64,000 nt of DNA, taken from Bacteroidales bacterium (lineage in GTDB: Bacteria > Bacteroidota > Bacteroidia > Bacteroidales > GCA-2748055). The notes below the pieces were generated by a model that saw only the letters and a list, made by a program, of their open reading frames with translations, made no database searches and was not told where the DNA came from. The DNA lies in NCBI GenBank assembly GCA_021738565.1, contig JAIPBT010000012.1:36843-100842 (forward strand), given 5' to 3'. The first letter of the stretch is position 1, and each line of letters starts with the position of its first letter. The position numbers and the translations under genes are program-made. Of the stretch, positions 33,404 through 41,196 are shown in pieces.

Positions 33404-33553
33404 TAGTGTCTGTCCATAATGTCCGTTTGCTGCGTTACGCTCGTCGGGAAATTGCTCATCCCGATAATATATCGGGACTCCGCATTTCTCAACTTCGCAG
33501 GCCTTGCAAACGAACATTATGATCCAGCCACCGGACTGTATTGACAGACTCTA
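33404..33553. mobile_element. MITE (family A), complete copy with terminal inverted repeats
   Basis: Left end TAGTGTCTGTCCATA and right end TATTGACAGACTCTA match at 13/15; no ORF; homologous to 1247 and 41845. Confidence 0.8.
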
Positions 33554-33562
33554 TTTAAATGC

Positions 33563-33601
33563 AAAAAAGCCAGGTTACTGTAAAATGACCTGGCTTTTTT
33601 T
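33563..33601. terminator. Rho-independent terminator, possibly bidirectional
   Basis: AAAAAAGCCAGGT...ACCTGGCTTTTTT hairpin with A/T tails. Confidence 0.8.
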
Positions 33602-33697
33602 ATAAAAAAAATTGGCTTTCTTTCTAAGTTATTTTAAACTGCATCAAAGTTGCAGTCGTTTTTATTAGTTTTGTCCAAACATTATAAATAATCAAAC

Positions 33698-34117
33698 ATG
33701 AGCTTTGAAACATCCGGAAGGATCACTGAGATTTTTCAAACACAACAGGTAACCGATAAATTCAAGAAACGAGAGTTTGTTATCGAAATCAAAGAGACCG
33801 GCAATGCCGGTTTTGAGTTTGTCGAGTATGTTAAATTCCAGACTGTCCAGGACAAGTGCAGCATGCTTGACGCGTTCAATATAGACGACAATGTTCGCGT
33901 TAGCTTCAACCTTCGCGGTCGCAAATGGGAAAAAGATGGACAGACCTCCTATTTTATAAATCTTGATGCGTGGAAGATTGAAAATGAACAATCAACAAAT
34001 AATTCCCCCTCAGCAACCGGATCGCAAGATCAGGATAGGTCTGACAATTTCTCCAGCGACATTACCCCTGGCGAACCGCCTGCCGACAGTTCGGGATTTG
34101 ATGATCTCCCCTTTTAA
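33698..34117 (+). CDS. DUF3127 protein (OB-fold, SSB-like acidic tail)
   Basis: FKKREFVI, VSFNLRGRKW, YFINLDAWKIE, low-complexity linker, C-terminal DDLPF; TAGTTTTG -7 box at about 33666. Confidence 0.85.
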   Translation: MSFETSGRITEIFQTQQVTDKFKKREFVIEIKETGNAGFEFVEYVKFQTVQDKCSMLDAFNIDDNVRVSFNLRGRKWEKDGQTSYFINLDAWKIENEQSTNNSPSATGSQDQDRSDNFSSDITPGEPPADSSGFDDLPF

Positions 34118-34120
34118 TTT

Positions 34121-34159
34121 TTGAACGATCAACCCTAATTACATTGGGTTCGTCATCAA
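34121..34159. terminator. Imperfect hairpin between convergent genes; one arm matches the peptide 5' UTR
   Basis: TTGAACGATCAACCCTAAT-TAC-ATTGGGTTCGTCATCAA. Confidence 0.5.
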
Positions 34160-34165
34160 TCCCGT

Positions 34166-35026
34166 TCAGTTCAGCAGTCCGGTATAATTTTCCTCCTGTC
34201 GCATTTCCAGATCCTTACGCATACCGATCATTTTAACCGGCAGGCAGATCGTTATTCCCATTCGTTTAAGATCGGGGTTATTCAGGCTGACTGTTCCACC
34301 CATTTGACGGACCATGTCCCTTGTCAGTTTAAAAGCTATGCCGGTATTATCTAAATAATTATACCAATCATTCCCGTTAACCGTATTTTCAAAGATCATT
34401 TTTGCCCTCTCCTCGAGCAATTCATTTTTGTCGCTCACAATGGTTATATGTGCCTCCTTTTCTTCAGCGATTCTCAACCTCAATTCCACTACTCCCTTCT
34501 GCTGGTTTGTCATTGCATTGATAACCAGGCTTTCCAGTATTCGCTGAAGGCGGAATCCATCGGTTTCAACGACGATCCGCTTGTACATCCATGGCAGCGT
34601 GAGCAACAGCACTGCAGAATATCGCAATTCTCTGATTGAATGTATATGGTTCTTCTGATAGATCACCTTCAGGAGATCATCAACAAACACCGTTTCCTTG
34701 CTGAAAGTCAGGTTATTTGTTTCCAGCAATGCAAAATCAATGATGTTGTCGACCACTTTCAGAAGCATATTGCTGTTCAGGGAGATATACTCAATGTACT
34801 CATCCCTTTCATTCTCAGAGATATTCTCACTCTTCAGCAGGTCCGAGAATCCCAGGATTGCATTCATTGGTGTCCTGATCTCATGCGAAACATTGGAAAG
34901 AAACCTGGTTTTGACCTGGGAGCCTGCATCCTTGTTTGCATGGTAGATCCCTTCCAGCCACCTTACCTTTTCCATCAGCATTTGATTCACCGATTTCAAT
35001 TCCTCGTATGTGGGTTTTTCATTCAT
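34166..35026 (-). CDS. Sensor-less histidine kinase-like protein (HisKA plus degenerate HATPase)
   Basis: MNEKPTYEEL coiled N-terminus, FLSNVSHEIRTPMNAILGFSDLL H-box; G1 box replaced by SDKNE, G2 replaced by NTGIAF. Confidence 0.8.
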   Translation of the reverse strand: MNEKPTYEELKSVNQMLMEKVRWLEGIYHANKDAGSQVKTRFLSNVSHEIRTPMNAILGFSDLLKSENISENERDEYIEYISLNSNMLLKVVDNIIDFALLETNNLTFSKETVFVDDLLKVIYQKNHIHSIRELRYSAVLLLTLPWMYKRIVVETDGFRLQRILESLVINAMTNQQKGVVELRLRIAEEKEAHITIVSDKNELLEERAKMIFENTVNGNDWYNYLDNTGIAFKLTRDMVRQMGGTVSLNNPDLKRMGITICLPVKMIGMRKDLEMRQEENYTGLLN

Positions 35027-35056
35027 TCTGAAGCTGTTGAAATACCTCTTTACTGT

Positions 35057-35809
35057 TTAATTTTTGAGTTTTCTCAGCAATTTTCTTGCCGCTCTCTTTT
35101 TATCACTGTTACTGGATGCAATCCTGGCAAATTGTCTCCGCGCCCTTTCAGTATCATTCGTTGCCAGGTAGCACAATCCAAGGTACCATTCAGCCTGCTC
35201 AACATACAGGTTATCATTGTGTTCGATAACCTTGTTGAAAGAAATTCCTGCATCGGTATACCTGTTCATCTCAAAATATGAGATACCAGTATACAGGTTG
35301 GTTGCCACCTGGTCGGGATGCTGCTCGAGCACCTTTTCAAAATAAACAACGGCTTCAGCAAATTCGCCATCCAGGTACAATCGCTCAGCATGCTGAAGCA
35401 TCAGCTCCAGTTCCGTGTCGTTCGACCTGTTAATGAGCGCAACCTCATATGGCTTGTAATATTTTTTAAGCAGATCCTTGTTCGAAATGGGCCTGTCTAA
35501 AAAAGATGCCATCCCAATGGCAAGGATCAGGGCAATAGCTGCAGTGGCAGCATAGTGCCAGGGTTTTGTAAAGCGTATGGGCAATCTTGAATTGCCACTG
35601 CTCTGTTTGGTCTCTTTTCGCAGATCCCTGAGTTGATCTCTGAAATTCAATACTTCAGTATCAGCAAGTGCCTCATCGACTTCCCTGTAAAGTACCAGTT
35701 CTGCCTGTAATTCGGGACTTGTCTCCAGGTCTGCTTCGAACCTCTTCATTTCCTTTTCTGAAAGGTCATGATCGAGGTACATCTGGATCATGTACTTGTC
35801 TCGTTTCAT
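35057..35809 (-). CDS. Putative anti-sigma factor: N-terminal ASD-like helices, one TM helix, C-terminal TPR domain
   Basis: IQMYLDHDLSEKEMKRFEADL N-terminus, TM WHYAATAAIALILAIGMASFL, TPR helices ending EQAEWYLGLCYL. Confidence 0.75.
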   Translation of the reverse strand: MKRDKYMIQMYLDHDLSEKEMKRFEADLETSPELQAELVLYREVDEALADTEVLNFRDQLRDLRKETKQSSGNSRLPIRFTKPWHYAATAAIALILAIGMASFLDRPISNKDLLKKYYKPYEVALINRSNDTELELMLQHAERLYLDGEFAEAVVYFEKVLEQHPDQVATNLYTGISYFEMNRYTDAGISFNKVIEHNDNLYVEQAEWYLGLCYLATNDTERARRQFARIASSNSDKKRAARKLLRKLKN

Positions 35810-36013
35810 ATGATTATGTAAATAAATTTTCCATGTAAATTCATCTAGAACTACACATCCATCAGATCACACTGATCCACAGATGTATTTATGTATTGCC
35901 ATGCTGAAATAATTCAGCTCAGCGTACCATTTTCATTACTTAGTTCAGTTCGGGCGTTCCCAAATAAGGTATTTACAAGGTATTTAAATCTCTTTTCGGA
36001 TTGTCCCGCAAGA

Positions 36014-36157
36014 TTAGTTGCCATCATCGGTAGCTCCGCCGGGAGGTACTAATAAGTCCGTTGGTTGATCAGAACCTCCTCCTTTTAAAAAATTCATCTC
36101 TACCATGGTCATTGCATCCGTTGCAAAATTGTCGATTGTGAATTGTAAAGTTTTCAT
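36014..36157 (-). CDS. 47-aa double-glycine-leader peptide precursor, absent from the ORF track: MKTLQFTIDNFATDAMTMVEMNFLKGG-GSDQPTDLLVPPGGATDDGN
   Basis: Manual translation, ATG at 36157 to TAA at 36016-36014; MTMVEMNFLKGG fits the (L/M)(S/T)xxE(L/M)xx(I/L)xGG leader consensus; A-rich Bacteroidota-type leader AACCCTAATTACAAACGAC. Confidence 0.8.
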   Translation of the reverse strand: MKTLQFTIDNFATDAMTMVEMNFLKGGGSDQPTDLLVPPGGATDDGN

Positions 36158-36204
36158 GTCGTTTGTAATTAGGGTTTAACATATTTGTTGATCGTTCAAC
36201 CCTT

Positions 36205-36232
36205 TATTCCCAAAAACATGGAAACGTTACCC
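36205..36232 (-). promoter_or_regulatory. Candidate ECF-sigma promoter for the peptide/anti-sigma/kinase operon
   Basis: Minus strand GGGTAAC-N15-GGAATA; AAC-containing -35 typical of ECF promoters, preceded by a T-tract. Confidence 0.4.
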
Positions 36233-36372
36233 AAAAAAAATAAAAAATTTTCATTTTATTTTTAATAGCTTAATAATCAAATATTTAATTATATATTTTT
36301 TAATGAAAAAAATGATATATTTTGGAATCTATACTTGTTTTTATTTCATTTACATTGTATATATAGAATATA

Positions 36373-39165
36373 ATGAAAATAGTTTCAATATTCCTGTCAT
36401 TTTTTCTTATCCATTATTTTTTCTCTGCTCACGGGCAAATTGAGAAATCAACACCTGAGCAAAAAATTAATTCCCTGAGTCAAAAGGCATGGGATTATTT
36501 TTATCAAGGCAAGTATGATAGTGCTGAATATTTTTATCAAAACACTATCAACTTACAAGAAGCTTATTTTGGGCATTATGATAATCATACAGCTGGAACA
36601 TATTTAAATTTAGGAGCAGTATATAGAAGACTTTATCATTTGAAAGATGCACTGAAGTATTTAAATATTGCTGAGGCTATTTTTAAGCAGACTAGTCCAG
36701 ATACCTACTTATTGGGATATATTTATAATAATAAAGGAAACATCTATTATACTTATTCTGATTATGGCGAAAGCGAAAGGTATTACAAACAAAGTCTTAA
36801 TCAGCTAATTAGAACACAACAATATAATAATGACATATTTGAAATAGTATATTTAAACCTATTTAATCTTCTAATAACCCAAAATCGTTTAGAGGAAGCT
36901 GAGACTTTAATTGAGGAAATTAAAGAGATTGAAGTAATTGGAAAAAATTCATATTCCAAAAACAAATATTTAGCTCAAGCATATGATATATTAGGCCATA
37001 ATGAATTAGCTCTAATCGAAATTAGTAAAGGTAAAGCGAAATTAGCATCGGATAAAAATTCAAGCCCTCATGACTTAATAGAATTTAATTTTAGAGAAGC
37101 ATCTGTACATTTAAAATTAAATAATCTTTCCAAAGCATTAGAGCTTTCTCTTGATAATATTGGTTTGTTCCAAAATATTAAGACAATTGATTATCAGAAA
37201 TTGGCAGACACATATTGGTTAGTAGGTAATATTTATTTTATTAAAGAAGAGTATCGGAATTGTTACGATTGGTTATCAAATGTTATTAATGAGTTAAATG
37301 AGGCACTAAAGAATTCAGATATTACTCAAATAGACCCTACCTCCCGCATTTTGAAAAGTTTTTTTGTGGATCTAAATCACTTACAAGCTCAAACTTGTGT
37401 TGCTCTCCATGAAGAAACTGGAAATAATAAATATTTAGAACAGTCACTCAAATTATATACTGAGATTATAGAAGTATTAAAGATCTTTAAAATTCATATG
37501 AGGAATGACAAAAGCAAATTTAGTAACACAGAAAATAGATTATCATTAATTCATGAAGCAACCAATGTTGCATTGCAACTATATGAAACTAGTAAACAGG
37601 AAAAATATTTTAATAAGGCATTTAATTATGCAGAGAATTCCAAGTCATTTATTTTATTATCTCAAATAAAAGAAGTTGAAGCTATTCAATTTGCTGAATT
37701 ACCAAAGAAAATACTCGATAGAGAAACAAATTTATCTGGTGAAATATCAGGTTATGAAGAATTAATTTTTGAAGAAAATATTAGTCTTGAACCAGATAGT
37801 CTTAAACTAGCTACTTTGACCAATAAGTTATTTGAGCTTAAAGATGATTATAATGCATTACTAGACTCAATTGAGTTATTATATCCCAACTATTTTGAAC
37901 TGAAATACAATCCCCATTTTATAACGCCATCGGAGGCACAGTTCAGACTTCACAGGCATGAGGCACTTGTGGAATACTTACTTTCAGATTCCATACTCAC
38001 CACGTTTGTTATAGACAAGGAGCAGATTGAAGCGTTCCAGCAGCGGCTGCCCGAAGGTTTTTCAAAGAAGTGCATCGACTATTTCACATTGATCCGTGAC
38101 CAGAATTTCAGTCAGGATGTACACCAGACATACAGGGATTTTGTTCGGCTCAGCAGGATGTTCCACGAGATCCTGGTTGCACCTGTACTGGAATTAACGG
38201 AAAGCAGGGAGATCACTTTTGTCCCCGACGGCGCCATCATGTACCTGCCGTTTGAAGCTTTTCTCACCGCGGATGTCGATGAGGAGTACATTGATTACCA
38301 TTCCCTTCCTTACCTGATCCACGATGTATCGGTAGGTTATTCATATTCTTCAACCCTGCTCTTCAATAAGAGGTTCAAAACAGGATCCCCGGAGCGGAAG
38401 GTACTGGCTTTTGCCCCATCCTATAACAACCTTCTTGGTGAAGATCCGCTCGAATGGGACAGGCAAAGCAACCCGGATTTTCTGGTACCATTGCAGGGTG
38501 CTGTAGAAGAGGTGGAGTACATTTCAAAAAGGGTCCCCTCGGTAGCATTTATGGATTCAATGGCCTCCGAAGCGAATTTCAAAAAGCATGCATCCGATTA
38601 TTACGTGTTGCACCTGGCCATGCATACCATATTGAATGACCAGGAACCGATGTATTCCAGGCTTGCATTTACCAGGAACTTTAATGACACAACGGAAGAT
38701 CACGATCTGTTTACATACGAGATCTACAATATGCAGCTCAATGCCGATATGGTGGTCCTGAGCTCCTGCAACAGCGGGTATGGCAAGATGCAGAAAGGGG
38801 AAGGAATGATGAGCATGGCAAGGGGTTTTATTTATGCCGGCTGTCCAAGCATTATCATGACCCTCTGGCAGGTTTCCGACAGGTCAAGCTCGGAACTCAT
38901 GAGCAATTTCTACAAGCACCTGAAAAAAGGCAAGAGCAAAAAAAGTGCATTAAGGCAGGCAAAAATTGATTACATCAGGGCATCGGACAATTTGAAATCC
39001 AATCCCTATTTCTGGTCCTCCTTCCTTGTAGTTGGCGATAACTCTCCCCTGTACATGACATCGGCGGGTTGGTACCTTGCAATGATCATTCTGGCGTTCC
39101 TGATCGTGGTATTGCTTGCAACCTATAAAAAACAGATCCGCAAAAAACTTAAAAAATTCAGATAG
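36373..39165 (+). CDS. TPR-CHAT (caspase/HetF-associated, clan CD) protease with signal peptide and C-terminal membrane anchor
   Basis: Signal MKIVSIFLSFFLIHYFFSAHG; TPR helices; FVPDG, LPFEAF, AFAP, LHLAMH (His at about 38623), VVLSSCNSG (Cys at 38767), MTLWQVSD, PYFWSSF; TM WYLAMIILAFLIVVLLATY followed by basic tail. Confidence 0.92.
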   Translation: MKIVSIFLSFFLIHYFFSAHGQIEKSTPEQKINSLSQKAWDYFYQGKYDSAEYFYQNTINLQEAYFGHYDNHTAGTYLNLGAVYRRLYHLKDALKYLNIAEAIFKQTSPDTYLLGYIYNNKGNIYYTYSDYGESERYYKQSLNQLIRTQQYNNDIFEIVYLNLFNLLITQNRLEEAETLIEEIKEIEVIGKNSYSKNKYLAQAYDILGHNELALIEISKGKAKLASDKNSSPHDLIEFNFREASVHLKLNNLSKALELSLDNIGLFQNIKTIDYQKLADTYWLVGNIYFIKEEYRNCYDWLSNVINELNEALKNSDITQIDPTSRILKSFFVDLNHLQAQTCVALHEETGNNKYLEQSLKLYTEIIEVLKIFKIHMRNDKSKFSNTENRLSLIHEATNVALQLYETSKQEKYFNKAFNYAENSKSFILLSQIKEVEAIQFAELPKKILDRETNLSGEISGYEELIFEENISLEPDSLKLATLTNKLFELKDDYNALLDSIELLYPNYFELKYNPHFITPSEAQFRLHRHEALVEYLLSDSILTTFVIDKEQIEAFQQRLPEGFSKKCIDYFTLIRDQNFSQDVHQTYRDFVRLSRMFHEILVAPVLELTESREITFVPDGAIMYLPFEAFLTADVDEEYIDYHSLPYLIHDVSVGYSYSSTLLFNKRFKTGSPERKVLAFAPSYNNLLGEDPLEWDRQSNPDFLVPLQGAVEEVEYISKRVPSVAFMDSMASEANFKKHASDYYVLHLAMHTILNDQEPMYSRLAFTRNFNDTTEDHDLFTYEIYNMQLNADMVVLSSCNSGYGKMQKGEGMMSMARGFIYAGCPSIIMTLWQVSDRSSSELMSNFYKHLKKGKSKKSALRQAKIDYIRASDNLKSNPYFWSSFLVVGDNSPLYMTSAGWYLAMIILAFLIVVLLATYKKQIRKKLKKFR

Positions 39166-39168
39166 TAT

Positions 39169-39747
39169 TTATTCTTCCATCATATCACGGTAATCCTGGT
39201 CCTCCCTGATCCTGTTGATAAGGTACTCTTTGCAGAAATGCCTTCTCTTCCTGACATACGTATCGCTCCGGAAACCCAATTGCTCTGCTATCTCCCTGGC
39301 AGACAAATCCTGGACAGTAAGTTTTAGTATTTCCTGGCAATCCCCGGGAATCAGTTTTAAATTTCGCTGGTACACTGCAAGACGCAGGTCCTTGTCCTGC
39401 ACAGGCGGGGGTTCCTCAAATTCAATGAAATCCTCCATCTCCCTGTCAAGCCTGCCAACCTCCATTTTGCGGGAATCCCTTAATTTCTTTAACAACAACA
39501 ACCGGTTTATGGAATACAAATAGGTGGAAAAAGTGCTGGTAAGCTGAAATTCCTTCTCCTCACGAATCCGTTTGAAAATTATGATGAGGGATTCCTGGAA
39601 AATATCTTCTGCATCGTCTTCACTGCAACTGTTTGAAAGCACCATCCTGCTTACCCTGTCGAAATTGGTCGAATAGATGAAGTGGATTACATGGTTGTCT
39701 CTCCTGCGGAGACCATGGATTATCTCTTCATCGGAAAACCTCTTCAT
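39169..39747 (-). CDS. ECF-type sigma-70 factor
   Basis: Region 2 DAEDIFQE...FSTYLYSI, region 4 LSAREIAEQLGF; 192 aa. Confidence 0.9.
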   Translation of the reverse strand: MKRFSDEEIIHGLRRRDNHVIHFIYSTNFDRVSRMVLSNSCSEDDAEDIFQESLIIIFKRIREEKEFQLTSTFSTYLYSINRLLLLKKLRDSRKMEVGRLDREMEDFIEFEEPPPVQDKDLRLAVYQRNLKLIPGDCQEILKLTVQDLSAREIAEQLGFRSDTYVRKRRHFCKEYLINRIREDQDYRDMMEE

Positions 39748-39791
39748 GAAATAGTCTTATTGCGTCAGTTGATAGTGCACACTTGGAATGA

Positions 39792-39799
39792 CAAATATA
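39792..39799 (-). promoter_or_regulatory. Bacteroidota primary-sigma -7 box upstream of the ECF sigma gene
   Basis: TATATTTG on the minus strand matches TAnnTTTG. Confidence 0.5.
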
Positions 39800-39936
39800 A
39801 TTATTCTGATGAACCCCGGACTTTGAAAACCAAAACTAATGAAATTCTTATGAATAGATGTCAATATATCCTAAATTTGAAGAGAACTGAAAACTGCAAT
39901 CTTTCAGGTTGCCAGTTGTAAAAAAACCATTGAACA

Positions 39937-41196
39937 ATGATCGAAAATTTACTGAATAAATACCAGGAACTGCTGATTGGTGCCGGCTTGTCGGAAAACC
40001 TTGCCATTGTGCTTGAAAATCTTTCGGTCTTCCTGGTTATCGCATTGCTTGCCTTCCTGGCCGACCGCATTACAAAAAGGATCCTGGTTGTTTCTATAAA
40101 GAATCTTGTCAGTAAAACCAGGACAAAGTATGATGACATACTTTTTAAAAAGAAAGTATTTATCAGGATCGCCCATATAGCGCCAGCCCTGGTTATCAAT
40201 GCCACCATCGTGTTTTTTATTGATGCCGAAGGACTTGCAATTTTCATAAGACTGCTGACCAATCTGTATATCATCCTGGTAACATCACTTGTTGTTGATT
40301 CATTGCTCAGTGCCCTGCATGAAATATACCTGCAACTTCCTGTTTCCCGCGGCAGAAATATAAAAGGCTATGTGCAACTGCTTAAGATCCTGATTTATGT
40401 CATTGCCTTGCTGGTTGCCATTTCAATAATAACGGAAAAACCGGTTTCAGGTCTGCTTGCAGGTATTGGCGCTTTCGCTGCTGTGCTCATCCTGGTTTTC
40501 AAGGATACGATCCTTGGGCTTGTAGCAAGCATCCAGATTGCAGCCAATAACATGGTGCATGTGGGTGACTGGATCTCCATGCCCAGTCATAATGCCGACG
40601 GTGATGTGATCGATATCGGCATAAACACGGTAAAGGTTCAGAACTGGGACAAAACCATATCCACCATACCGACCTATGCACTGATATCTGAGTCATTCAA
40701 TAATTGGAGGGGAATGTCAGAATCGGGCGGAAGAAGGATCAAACGGTCCATAAACATAGACATGCAAAGCATCCGGTTCGTGGATGAAAAGATGCTTGAT
40801 AAATTCAAAAAGATACATGTGCTGGGTGATTATATTGAGAAAAAAGAGAAGGAAATTGAAGAACACAATAAAAAAATTGGTGCCGATGAAAGCAACCTTA
40901 TCAATGGCCGGAGGATGACAAACCTGGGGACATTCCGGAAATACCTTGAAATATACCTTCAGAACCATCCCAAAATCAACAGGGACATGACTTTTCTTAT
41001 AAGGCACCTGCAACCCACTGAAAGGGGGATCCCCATCGAGATATATGTTTTTAGTAATGATGTGAAATGGGCGAACTATGAAGCCATCCAGGCAGACATA
41101 TTCGATCATATACTTTCAGTTATTCCGGAATTCGGACTTCGTGTGTTCCAGGATCCCAGTGGAGATGATTTTAAAAGTTTCATTTCAAATCGCTGA
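39937..41196 (+). CDS. MscS-family mechanosensitive channel (YbdG-like)
   Basis: LVFKDTILGLVASIQ, GDWISMP, VKVQNWDKTI, NWRGMSESGGRRIKRS, TNLGTFR. Confidence 0.92.
   Translation: MIENLLNKYQELLIGAGLSENLAIVLENLSVFLVIALLAFLADRITKRILVVSIKNLVSKTRTKYDDILFKKKVFIRIAHIAPALVINATIVFFIDAEGLAIFIRLLTNLYIILVTSLVVDSLLSALHEIYLQLPVSRGRNIKGYVQLLKILIYVIALLVAISIITEKPVSGLLAGIGAFAAVLILVFKDTILGLVASIQIAANNMVHVGDWISMPSHNADGDVIDIGINTVKVQNWDKTISTIPTYALISESFNNWRGMSESGGRRIKRSINIDMQSIRFVDEKMLDKFKKIHVLGDYIEKKEKEIEEHNKKIGADESNLINGRRMTNLGTFRKYLEIYLQNHPKINRDMTFLIRHLQPTERGIPIEIYVFSNDVKWANYEAIQADIFDHILSVIPEFGLRVFQDPSGDDFKSFISNR

What the first reader, a model, noticed from the sequence alone, without database searches (positions are those of the whole stretch)
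34166..39747. Candidate peptide-pheromone / TPR-CHAT protease / anti-sigma / ECF sigma signalling system
Seen: five clustered genes. These are an ECF sigma (-), a TPR-CHAT protease (+) with signal peptide, intact His/Cys dyad and C-terminal TM anchor, a 47-aa GG-leader peptide (-), a TM-TPR anti-sigma-like protein (-) and a degenerate kinase (-). The protease and peptide sit between the sigma and its presumed anti-sigma. Known: CHAT domains are clan CD cysteine proteases; in type III-E CRISPR, TPR-CHAT cleaves Csx30 to release a sigma factor; TPR domains are the peptide sensors of RRNPP quorum-sensing receptors; GG leaders mark exported pheromones and bacteriocins. Inference: the mature peptide binds the periplasmic TPR array and modulates CHAT, which cleaves the periplasmic part of the anti-sigma. 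This would free the ECF, which transcribes the peptide (positive loop) and the anti-sigma (negative loop). I know of no described quorum-sensing circuit of this kind in Bacteroidota.
Basis: partly seen in the sequence, partly recalled or inferred. Interest (0 to 1): 0.92.

Follow-up and report, generated by a model that had tools for sequence, protein, structure and literature searches.

The report
Peptide-linked protease and sigma-factor switch
A gene set kept across many Bacteroidota joins a small exported peptide, a membrane-anchored protease with a peptide-binding repeat domain, and a sigma/anti-sigma pair, and it looks like a so far undescribed way for these bacteria to sense a peptide they make themselves.

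Summary
All five genes are present as described. This is a conserved module, not a chance cluster. Gene order is the same across the window's genus and family. A GG-leader peptide gene lies just upstream of the TPR-CHAT gene in 45 of 59 assessable loci that also hold the sigma or anti-sigma gene, and in 0 of 12 that hold neither. Each peptide gene follows an ECF-type promoter. In 8 loci the same motif also precedes the ECF gene itself, so the peptide is probably an ECF target. In 15 distant loci a C39-peptidase ABC exporter sits beside the module. Its ortholog is unlinked in this genome. A complex model puts the conserved peptide core in the N-terminal TPR groove of the CHAT protein (score 0.78, best control 0.00). 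That region is also the fastest-evolving part. The closest known system is Myxococcus DdvA/DdvS, a fused anti-sigma-TPR-CHAT; here it is split and has a self-made peptide. Cleavage of the anti-sigma, peptide export and the direction of the effect are inferred, not shown. Eight literature searches found no description of this module.

The parts
34166..35026 (-). Sensor-less histidine-kinase-like protein (286 aa), downstream of the anti-sigma gene on the same strand
   Evidence: HisKA E 3.5e-16 and HATPase_c E 2.7e-8. H-box His is kept in 31 of 33 aligned homologs. The G1 (DxGxG) and G2 boxes are lost in the window genus but intact in other clades. tblastn finds it in 35 of 71 assessable loci.
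35057..35809 (-). Single-pass anti-sigma-like protein: cytoplasmic three-helix N-terminus, TM 86-104, conserved juxtamembrane motif, periplasmic TPR 132-248
   Evidence: In other clades it lies directly downstream of the ECF gene (for example L056, L059, L077, L090).
36014..36157 (-). 47-aa double-glycine-leader peptide precursor. Predicted mature part starts after GG(G) and holds the conserved core PTDLLVPP
   Evidence: tblastn recovers it in 7 of 7 closest complete loci. ORFs are listed, and aligned as A2. Weak, below-cut-off hits of relatives to GG-leader families TIGR04149 and TIGR01847.
36203..36232 (-). ECF-type promoter candidate: GGGTAACGTTT, 11 bases, GGAATAAA, about 73 nt before the peptide ATG
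   Evidence: Both blocks are invariant in 12 aligned loci. Clade-specific versions stand before peptide genes elsewhere. The same motif precedes the ECF gene in 8 loci. The exact motif occurs once in the own genome, with one near-match of different spacing and no evident gene behind it.
36167..36176 (-). Invariant 5'-leader element AACCCTAATT about 10 nt before the peptide start codon; role unknown
   Evidence: No Rfam match in 33500-40500.
36373..39165 (+). TPR-CHAT protease (930 aa): signal or anchor helix 2-19, TPR superhelix about 28-525, CHAT domain 593-889, C-terminal TM 898-917
   Evidence: The fold matches craspase Csx29 (8eey_B, E 8.7e-16), separase and DdvA (8rot_A, E 1e-13). The predicted peptide groove is formed by residues 33-392.
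39169..39747 (-). ECF sigma factor (192 aa)
   Evidence: 60-71% identical in relatives L022-L028. Its only close paralog in the genome is ECF2, next to the orphan exporter.
39792..39803 (-). Housekeeping-type promoter element TAATTATATTTG before the ECF gene
   Evidence: Conserved in L022-L026, L040 and L041; coordinates. The consensus TAnnTTTG is recalled, not taken from a call.

Best explanation
This is a conserved Bacteroidota signalling module in which the cell's own exported peptide controls an ECF sigma factor through a periplasmic TPR-CHAT protease.

Proposed sequence of events:
1. The ECF sigma transcribes the GG-leader peptide gene.
2. A dedicated C39-peptidase ABC exporter cuts off the leader and exports the short, proline-rich, acidic peptide. 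A membrane-fusion partner assists. In this genome both genes are unlinked to the module.
3. The peptide core binds the concave groove of the N-terminal TPR superhelix of the membrane-anchored, periplasm-facing TPR-CHAT protein.
4. Binding changes CHAT activity. I favour activation.
5. CHAT cuts the periplasmic part of the single-pass anti-sigma, as proposed for the fused DdvA of Myxococcus.
6. Intramembrane proteolysis then frees the sigma, which closes an autoinduction loop.

Shown by computation: the genes, their conservation and linkage, the shared promoter, the exporter linkage, and the predicted binding.
Inferred: export, cleavage of the anti-sigma, the sign of the effect, and any role in cell-cell signalling.
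Unexplained: the role of the kinase-like protein.
For: 1. Conservation. The CHAT protein matches in 30 of 41 related genomes and in 21 of 24 genomes of the same family. Gene order mnmC-FKBP-DUF3127-HK-antisigma-peptide-CHAT-ECF-MscS-Lrp-TrmH is kept.

2. Peptide gene.
- 45 of 71 assessable loci have a leader-HMM ORF within 1.5 kb upstream of CHAT, and 44 of these are divergent to it.
- The split is 45 of 59 loci with a sigma or anti-sigma homolog against 0 of 12 with neither.
- Four more were found by eye.
- The leader is conserved and so is the core motif D-[LM]-[IL]-[IV]-P-P within the family.

3. Promoter.
- GGGTAACGTTT...GGAAT[AT]AA is invariant in 12 loci.
- Other clades carry their own versions.
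- In 8 loci the ECF gene carries the same motif as the peptide gene of that locus.

4. Exporter.
- Orthologs of the genome's orphan exporter, 50-58% identical, lie beside the module in 15 of 98 non-duplicate loci.
- A HlyD-type gene lies next to the exporter in the two loci annotated.
- All 15 of those loci have a GG peptide.
- All 11 relatives with a peptide-bearing locus have a C39 gene. G027 and G031 have CHAT, ECF and anti-sigma but no GG ORF, and have no C39 hit.

5. Binding model.
- ipSAE is 0.78 (runs 0.79, 0.78, 0.77), and the best of 3 controls is 0.00.
- That mark was reached by 58 of 80 solved complexes and 2 of 110 mismatched pairs.
- The runs agree in at least 52% of contacts, and partner pLDDT is 45-50.
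- Peptide residues 32-37 lie against TPR residues 78-86, 115-129 and 158-162.
- Groove residues N79, N119, N123 and N165 are invariant, and N162 is kept in 7 of 8, among close relatives whose TPR region is only 22-56% identical apart from one 82% pair.

6. Evolutionary rate. The TPR region is 39-43% identical within the genus, against 73-76% for the CHAT domain and about 70% for the ECF.

7. Precedent. DdvA is a periplasmic TPR-CHAT fused to an anti-sigma, and it is proposed to self-cleave before RseP acts (PMC11506125; abstract and passages read).
Against: - There is no experimental or expression evidence.
- Cleavage of the anti-sigma by CHAT was not tested in any way.
- 10 of 59 sigma-linked loci show no peptide after the additions, and two of those have a weak or frameshifted copy. 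The sigma/CHAT core may therefore work without a peptide in some lineages.
- In the window's genome the exporter and its fusion partner are unlinked. No ECF-type motif was seen before ECF2 or the exporter by eye.
- In the window's family the ECF gene is not visibly autoregulated.
- An exporter with a HlyD partner would send the peptide out of the cell. How it returns to the periplasm is unknown.
- The peptide's own fold is uncertain in the model, the alignments were my own, and many TPR-peptide complexes are solved, so part of the score may come from likeness to those.
- The leader HMM was built from hits in the same loci. The independent control is only the own genome and the flanks.
Confidence: 0.45

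Rival explanations
1. The TPR-CHAT protein is a second-step processing or degrading protease for the exported peptide. It recruits the peptide through its TPR groove, as some exported peptides need a further extracellular cut. The sigma/anti-sigma pair senses something else and only regulates production.
For: The model shows the peptide bound to the CHAT protein. Peptide, exporter and protease genes are linked. The dyad is intact.
Against: - In the model no peptide residue touches the CHAT domain. All confident contacts lie in residues 33-392.
- CHAT stays linked to the ECF and anti-sigma genes in loci with no peptide found.
- The fused DdvA precedent ties TPR-CHAT to anti-sigma control.
Confidence: 0.18
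2. The parts are the same but the sign is opposite. The peptide holds CHAT inactive or blocks its groove, so sigma-driven peptide production is a negative feedback that resets the switch, and another cue activates CHAT.
For: Separase, a structural relative, is held by an inhibitor that occupies its substrate sites (recalled knowledge). The binding model says nothing about the sign. In the window's family the anti-sigma gene lies downstream of the peptide gene, so both brakes could be made together.
Against: The peptide is not modelled at the active site. Self-made GG peptides under their own regulator usually autoinduce (general knowledge, not tested here).
Confidence: 0.13
3. The peptide is sensed by the small periplasmic TPR domain of the anti-sigma itself. 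CHAT acts constitutively or answers to another signal.
For: The anti-sigma has a periplasmic TPR domain conserved in all clades. This pairing was not modelled.
Against: The anti-sigma periplasmic part is fairly conserved (55-69% identity) and its juxtamembrane motif is the same in clades with quite different peptides. The CHAT TPR region diverges with the peptides, and it passed the complex test.
Confidence: 0.1
4. The peptide is an antimicrobial or other secreted product, and the module is only its producer-side regulator. No sensing of the peptide is involved.
For: GG leaders and C39 exporters with HlyD partners are typical of bacteriocin loci. Relatives give weak hits to bacteriocin-leader families.
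Against: - The predicted mature parts are 8-30 residues, acidic and proline-rich, with no hydrophobic or cationic stretch in most clades.
- No immunity or modification gene is conserved in the module.
- The locus is core chromosome with fixed synteny.
- The genome's classic bacteriocin-like locus looks quite different.
Confidence: 0.07

Closest known systems
DdvA/DdvS of Myxococcus xanthus (transmembrane anti-sigma with periplasmic TPR-CHAT and its ECF sigma; PMC11506125)
   Same: An ECF sigma is controlled by a membrane anti-sigma together with a periplasmic TPR-CHAT that has a His-Cys dyad. The fold match to 8rot_A has E 1e-13. The proposed logic is the same: a CHAT cut followed by intramembrane proteolysis.
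   Different: - Here the anti-sigma and the TPR-CHAT are separate genes. The CHAT protein has its own signal or anchor helix and a C-terminal TM. No fused form was found among longer homologs of the anti-sigma (6 hits, none with CHAT).
- The cytoplasmic domain has no cysteine, so there is no CHCC zinc site.
- No defence genes are present and PADLOC gives no hit.
- A self-encoded GG peptide and an exporter are part of the module.
- DdvA's authors found DdvA-like proteins only in Myxococcota and one Comamonas (passage). Their table S7 could not be read.
Double-glycine peptide pheromone systems of Gram-positive bacteria (ComC/ComAB/ComDE type; recalled knowledge)
   Same: A small precursor has a GG leader: hydrophobic residues at -4, -7 and -12, Glu at -8 (the consensus is recalled). 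There is a dedicated C39-ABC exporter. The precursor gene is under the pathway's own regulator.
   Different: The predicted receptor is a TPR-protease, not a membrane histidine kinase. The output is an ECF sigma, not a response regulator. The kinase-like protein here has no membrane or sensor part. The host is diderm.
RRNPP peptide receptors (Rap, NprR, PlcR, PrgX; recalled knowledge)
   Same: A linear unmodified peptide is held in the concave groove of a TPR superhelix. Conserved Asn residues line the groove.
   Different: RRNPP receptors are cytoplasmic and their peptides are re-imported. Here the TPR faces the periplasm, is fused to a protease, and has no DNA-binding or phosphatase domain.
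Type III-E CRISPR craspase (Csx29 TPR-CHAT cutting Csx30 to free a sigma factor)
   Same: It gives the best structural matches (8eey_B, E 8.7e-16). It is also a TPR-CHAT protease whose cut releases a sigma factor from an inhibitor (abstract listing).
   Different: Craspase is cytoplasmic and RNA-activated through Cas7-11. There are no CRISPR genes here, and sequence identity in the fold alignment is 11-13%.

Membership tests
ECF (group 4) sigma-70 factors | Sigma-2 and sigma-4 regions only, matching the ECF profile | tested here: met
   TIGR02937 scores 51.1 bits against a cut-off of 42.9, over residues 31-177. Pfam Sigma70_r2 is just under its cut-off, 23.7 against 24.
ECF (group 4) sigma-70 factors | Co-encoded cognate anti-sigma | tested here: met
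   In the window the two genes are 3.4 kb apart. In many relatives the homologous anti-sigma lies directly downstream of the ECF gene (for example L056, L059, L077, L090).
Single-pass membrane anti-sigma factors | N-terminal anti-sigma domain that binds the sigma | tested here: inconclusive
   NF052375 has E 3.3e-7 but scores 30.5 bits against a cut-off of 100, and PRK13920 has E 1.1e-4. The profile search against PDB gives RsrA as best hit at E 0.1. The AF2 model shows three N-terminal helices. Binding was not modelled.
Single-pass membrane anti-sigma factors | One transmembrane helix between the cytoplasmic and the outer domain | tested here: met
   Hydrophobic segment 86-104; helix 84-103 in the model.
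CHAT / clan CD cysteine proteases | CHAT domain with a conserved His and Cys | tested here: met
   PF12770 scores 190.8 bits against a cut-off of 24. H747, H751 and C799 are invariant in 24 sequences. Which His is catalytic was not resolved.
CHAT / clan CD cysteine proteases | Separase/craspase-type TPR-CHAT fold | tested here: met
   AF2 model has pLDDT 84.5. Foldseek top hits are craspase, separase and DdvA, with E from 1e-13 to 9e-16.
CHAT / clan CD cysteine proteases | Proteolytic activity and a known substrate | not testable with these tools
That the anti-sigma is the substrate is inference.
DdvA-type TPR-CHAT anti-sigma | Anti-sigma domain, TM and TPR-CHAT in one polypeptide | tested here: not met
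   They are separate genes. No CHAT-bearing longer homolog of the anti-sigma was found.
DdvA-type TPR-CHAT anti-sigma | CHCC zinc-binding cytoplasmic domain | tested here: not met
   There is no Cys in residues 1-85 of the window protein or in the 15 aligned relatives.
Double-glycine leader peptides (substrates of C39 exporters) | Leader ending in GG with the conserved spacing of hydrophobic and acidic residues | tested here: met
   Window peptide: L at -4, M at -7, E at -8, M at -12, then GG. It is conserved in alignment A2. The consensus is recalled. NCBIfam leader models give only weak hits in relatives.
Double-glycine leader peptides (substrates of C39 exporters) | Cognate C39-peptidase ABC exporter | tested here: met
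   An exporter is adjacent in 15 loci. An ortholog with 50-58% identity is present but unlinked in the own genome. Cleavage itself cannot be tested here.
Histidine kinases | HisKA and HATPase_c domains with intact H, N, G1 and G2 boxes | tested here: not met
   The domains and the H-box His are present. G1 and G2 glycines are lost in the window genus. There is no sensor or TM part, and no response regulator in the locus.
RRNPP quorum-sensing receptors | Cytoplasmic TPR receptor with an effector domain (HTH or phosphatase) and a re-imported peptide | tested here: not met
   The topology is periplasmic and the effector is a protease.

The most novel reading that the evidence does not exclude
This is the first peptide-pheromone circuit of Bacteroidota and a third kind of peptide receptor, beside membrane kinases and RRNPP proteins. 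A self-made, exported linear peptide is read in the periplasm by the TPR groove of a caspase-like protease. The protease then cuts an anti-sigma and frees an ECF sigma that makes more peptide. The fast-evolving, AT-rich TPR cassette and the variable peptide core would then be matched pairs that set strain or species specificity.
Probability: 0.35. Interest if true: 0.9.

Novelty: new variant of a known kind. Interest (0 to 1): 0.82.

Why it matters
Bacteroidota are major members of gut, soil, lake and marine communities, yet I know of no established peptide-based signalling pathway for them. If the reading holds:

- Double-glycine peptide signalling would extend to a diderm phylum.
- A protease would be added to the known types of peptide receptor.
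- The proposal made for DdvA, that a periplasmic TPR-CHAT is the first cutter of an anti-sigma, would get a natural split version. In that version protease, substrate and ligand are separate and easy to test.
- The small apparent regulon and the well-defined promoter would make it a compact, orthogonal peptide-to-transcription switch.

The module also occurs in cultivated, harmless isolates named in the records (Labilibaculum manganireducens, Ancylomarina longa, Sunxiuqinia dokdonensis), so the bench tests are ordinary ones.

Tried and rejected
- **Chance ORF.** Rejected by conservation and by the own-genome control.
- **Recent horizontal transfer as the cause of the low-GC stretch.** Rejected, because the same GC cliff is present in 7 relatives.
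- **Mobile or defence island.** Rejected: flanking housekeeping synteny is fixed and PADLOC gives no hit for the 5 proteins.
- **Peptide as a mimic of the anti-sigma juxtamembrane segment.** No covariation: that segment is conserved across clades whose peptides differ.
- **RNA structure in the peptide 5' leader.** A stem is seen in some loci but not in others, and there is no Rfam match. Left open.
- **Second regulon members.** The exact promoter motif occurs once in the genome. Loose patterns gave 3 and 13 hits, and one near-match at C29 has no evident gene behind it. No ECF-type motif was seen by eye before ECF2 or the orphan exporter.
- **Fused anti-sigma-CHAT forms.** None among the 6 longer homologs. 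This is weak evidence.
- **Sequence search of the CHAT protein against PDB.** It found only kinesin-light-chain-type TPR matches. The fold search was needed to reach craspase, separase and DdvA.
- **Expression.** No RNA holder was listed for the locus.
- **Anti-sigma model.** It was not sent to fold search, since its TPR half would dominate the matches.
- **The search of earlier findings.** Closed.
- **Literature.** Searches found no paper on this module. only located the ECF classification paper, whose main text has 0 occurrences of CHAT. Its supplementary group tables, and table S7 of the DdvA paper, could not be read and may bear on novelty.
- **How much of each paper was read.** PMC11506125: abstract, outline and passages. 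PMC7826278: passages only. All other papers: search listings only.


Full report
**1.

The region 34166-39747 contains the five ORFs as described.

- ECF sigma (39169-39747, minus strand): passes the ECF superfamily model TIGR02937, 51.1 bits against a cut-off of 42.9.
- TPR-CHAT protein (36373-39165, plus strand, 930 aa):
  - It has a strong CHAT domain, PF12770, E 4.6e-56, residues 593-889. N-terminal TPR hits precede it.
  - The N-terminus is hydrophobic. A C-terminal hydrophobic helix (898-917) is followed by a lysine/arginine-rich tail.
  - H747, H751 and C799 are invariant in 24 homologs.
  - With both hydrophobic ends in the membrane and the basic tail inside, the bulk of the protein faces the periplasm. 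This topology is inferred.
- Anti-sigma-like protein (35057-35809, minus strand, 250 aa):
  - It gives only sub-threshold anti-sigma hits.
  - It has a hydrophobic segment at 86-104 and TPR repeats at 135-245.
  - Its AF2 model shows three N-terminal helices, one long membrane helix and a C-terminal TPR bundle.
- Kinase-like protein (34166-35026, minus strand, 286 aa):
  - It has HisKA and HATPase_c domains but no sensor or membrane part.
  - The phospho-acceptor His is kept. The two glycine boxes of the ATP lid are lost in this genus, though intact in other clades.
- Peptide (36014-36157, minus strand, 47 aa): its leader ends in EMNFLKGGG.

**2. It is a conserved module**

The CHAT protein has matches in 30 of 41 related genomes, the window's own included, and in 21 of 24 genomes of the same family. 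There is a single CHAT gene in the window's genome.

In the relatives with enough flanking sequence the order is mnmC, FKBP, DUF3127, kinase-like, anti-sigma, peptide, CHAT, ECF, MscS, Lrp, TrmH, the same as in the window. The module is therefore part of the core chromosome, not an island. PADLOC has no hit for any of the five proteins.

**3. The peptide gene is real**

- tblastn with the 47-residue peptide finds it in all 7 of the closest complete loci.
- A small ORF with the same leader and a related core lies between the anti-sigma and CHAT genes in 10 family loci. An eleventh, L033, has a frameshifted copy.
- A scan of GTDB species genomes with an alignment of CHAT homologs returned 80 more loci. 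By their record titles they come from Bacteroidales, Prolixibacteraceae, Lentimicrobiaceae, Rikenellaceae-labelled MAGs, Labilibaculum, Ancylomarina, Sunxiuqinia, Saprospiraceae, Lewinellaceae and others.
- Of 100 loci, 98 are non-duplicate with a CHAT match. Of these, 71 are assessable, meaning the CHAT 5' end is complete and at least 700 nt lie upstream.
- 45 of the 71 have an ORF matching a leader HMM at E below 1e-3 within 1.5 kb upstream of CHAT. 44 of the 45 are on the opposite strand.
- The split is 45 of 59 loci that also hold an ECF or anti-sigma homolog, against 0 of 12 that hold neither.
- Inspection added L052, L055, L057 and L102.
- The HMM was built from regex hits in these same loci, so it is partly circular. 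Two controls stand apart from that:
  - In the window's whole genome the HMM gives one hit below 1e-3, the peptide itself, and the regex hits 9 of 32,341 small ORFs.
  - Within the loci, all hits lie next to CHAT or next to a duplicated anti-sigma gene.
- The predicted mature parts are short, acidic and proline-rich, and they differ by clade. Examples are PTDLLVPP and EPIDMIIPP in the window's family, DPILKPSLPPVQI, GIPIPIIITE and KSQDAYCDLN elsewhere.

**4. The peptide gene is probably an ECF target**

About 75 nt before every peptide start codon in the window's family lies GGGTAACGTTT, then 11-12 bases, then GGAAT[AT]AA. Both blocks are invariant in 12 aligned loci. In the window they are at 36232-36222 and 36210-36203.

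Other clades carry their own versions in the same place: GGGTTACCTTTT...GGAATAAA, TGTCACAAA...CGACATGTA and GGTGACATTT...GGAAC.

In 8 loci the ECF and anti-sigma genes form an operon: L059, L069, L082, L090, L091, L093, L100 and L118. There the ECF gene is preceded, about 38-41 nt before its start, by the same motif as the peptide gene of that locus. ECF sigma factors commonly transcribe their own genes (established knowledge). The shared motif is therefore best read as the cognate promoter, with the peptide gene as a target.

In the window's family the ECF gene instead follows a housekeeping-type element (consensus recalled). The anti-sigma and kinase-like genes lie downstream of the peptide gene on the same strand, so they may be reached by read-through, which is untested.

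The exact motif occurs once in the 3.98-Mb genome, which suggests a very small regulon.

**5. A dedicated exporter belongs to the module**

The genome has two C39-peptidase ABC exporters.

- One, on contig C49, sits in a classic locus with a hydrophobic GG peptide and a HlyD protein.
- The other, on contig C72, has no peptide and no HlyD beside it. It follows a second ECF and a second TM/TPR-like anti-sigma. That ECF2 is the only close paralog of the module's ECF in the genome.

Orthologs of this orphan exporter are 50-58% identical to it, but only 25-31% identical to the C49 exporter. They lie directly beside the module in 15 of the 98 loci. In the two loci I annotated, L096 and L088, a HlyD-type gene comes next. 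All 15 loci have a GG peptide. The window's genome keeps an ortholog of that HlyD gene elsewhere on C72.

Among the 41 related genomes, all 11 relatives with a peptide-bearing locus have a C39 gene. G027 and G031 have CHAT, ECF and anti-sigma but no GG ORF in 15 kb, and they have no C39 hit at 97% and 99% completeness. These numbers are small and the genomes are related.

**6. Predicted binding**

The complex job used the CHAT ectodomain (residues 23-895, alignment of 24 rows) and the 47-residue precursor (alignment of 16 rows).

- It scored ipSAE 0.78 (runs 0.79, 0.78, 0.77), against 0.00 for the best of three controls.
- That mark was reached by 58 of 80 solved complexes and 2 of 110 mismatched pairs.
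- The runs agree in at least 52% of contacts. The partner's pLDDT is 45-50, so its own fold is uncertain.
- The confident interface is peptide residues 23-41. The tightest contacts are at residues 32-37, the conserved core.
- The contacts on the protein side lie only between residues 33 and 392, the concave face of the N-terminal TPR superhelix. No contact with the CHAT domain was reported.
- Groove residues N79, N119, N123 and N165 are invariant in 8 close relatives, and N162 is kept in 7 of 8. The TPR region around them is only 22-56% identical, apart from one 82% pair.

The model supports binding but does not show it. Solved TPR-peptide complexes are common, so some of the score may reflect likeness to them.

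**7. The sensor part evolves fastest**

Within the genus:
- TPR region: 39-43% identical
- CHAT domain: 73-76%
- ECF: about 70%
- anti-sigma: 58-74%

(All.)

The same TPR-coding stretch has GC3 of 0.23, against 0.58 for the rest of the gene. This cliff recurs in 7 relatives. Its cause is unknown. A fast-changing receptor face paired with a variable peptide core fits matched specificity, but relaxed constraint would look similar.

**8. What it most likely is**

The best-supported reading is a split, peptide-linked version of the DdvA/DdvS kind of switch.

DdvA of Myxococcus is a single protein with a zinc-binding anti-sigma domain, a membrane helix and a periplasmic TPR-CHAT. Its authors propose signal-induced self-cleavage followed by RseP action. 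[quoted passage not shown]

The AF2 model of the window protein has pLDDT 84.5. It matches craspase Csx29, separase and DdvA.

Here the anti-sigma and the protease are separate and there is no zinc site. A self-made exported peptide is added. I put 0.45 on the whole chain: ECF makes the peptide, the exporter releases it, the TPR groove binds it, CHAT cuts the anti-sigma, and the sigma is freed.

The rivals are:
- a processing or degrading role of CHAT on the peptide (0.18);
- the same wiring with an inhibitory peptide (0.13);
- sensing by the anti-sigma's own TPR domain (0.10);
- a secreted antimicrobial product with no sensing (0.07).

**9. Gaps**

- Nothing here shows proteolysis, export or expression.
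- Ten sigma-linked loci lack a detectable intact peptide.
- An exporter with a HlyD partner should send the peptide outside the cell. Its way back to a periplasmic receptor is unexplained.
- The kinase-like protein is conserved in several clades but has no assigned role.
- Supplementary tables of the ECF classification and of the DdvA paper were closed.

**10. Novelty and score**

All the parts are known kinds: an ECF/anti-sigma pair, a TPR-CHAT, a GG peptide and a C39 exporter. Their combination, and a protease as the likely peptide receptor, was not found in the searches. I file it as a new variant of a known kind, with interest 0.82. The bolder reading is the first peptide-pheromone circuit of Bacteroidota with a new receptor type, at probability 0.35.

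Noticed in passing
window 36373-37900 (+), against 37900-39165: There is a sharp GC cliff inside one gene. GC3 is 0.23 in the first ~500 codons (the TPR part) and 0.58 in the rest. The same cliff occurs in 7 relatives (L022-L028) but is weak or absent in L045 and L034. Cause unknown.
   Followed up: partly
L124:4627-8279 (own genome, contig C72:76626-80278): A second ECF (30% identical to the module's ECF and its only close paralog), a second TM/TPR-like anti-sigma, and an orphan C39-ABC exporter stand in a row, with no GG peptide or HlyD nearby. Orthologs of this exporter sit beside the module in 15 distant loci. The ancestral cassette seems to be split in this genome.
   Followed up: partly
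window 36167-36176 (-): An invariant AACCC(C/T)TAATT lies about 10 nt before the peptide start codon in all 12 aligned family loci. A hairpin with it forms in some loci but not in others. There is no Rfam match.
   Followed up: partly
window 35810-36013 (-); L022-L026 equivalents: The spacer between the peptide gene and the anti-sigma gene varies from about 200 nt (window) to 540-750 nt (L022, L023, L025, L026) and has no conserved ORF. Whether it ends or passes transcription is unknown.
   Followed up: no
L033 (G015:C4:113000-129000): This looks like a decaying copy of the module. The peptide gene is frameshifted into two pieces, and the CHAT match carries an in-frame TGA.
   Followed up: no
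L053, L069, L072, L100; L064, L073: The peptide gene is duplicated in tandem (L053, L069, L072, L100). In L064 and L073 it is duplicated together with a second anti-sigma gene.
   Followed up: no
anti-sigma residues about 108-128 (window 35426-35488, -): A juxtamembrane periplasmic motif (window: DLLKKYYKPYEVALINRS; YY.PYE and RS recur) is conserved in nearly all clades, whatever the peptide core. It is a candidate cleavage or docking site.
   Followed up: partly
L125 (own genome, contig C49:28890-32571): This is a classic bacteriocin-type locus: a 65-aa GG-leader peptide with a hydrophobic mature part, a HlyD-family protein and a second C39-ABC exporter. It is unrelated to the module.
   Followed up: partly
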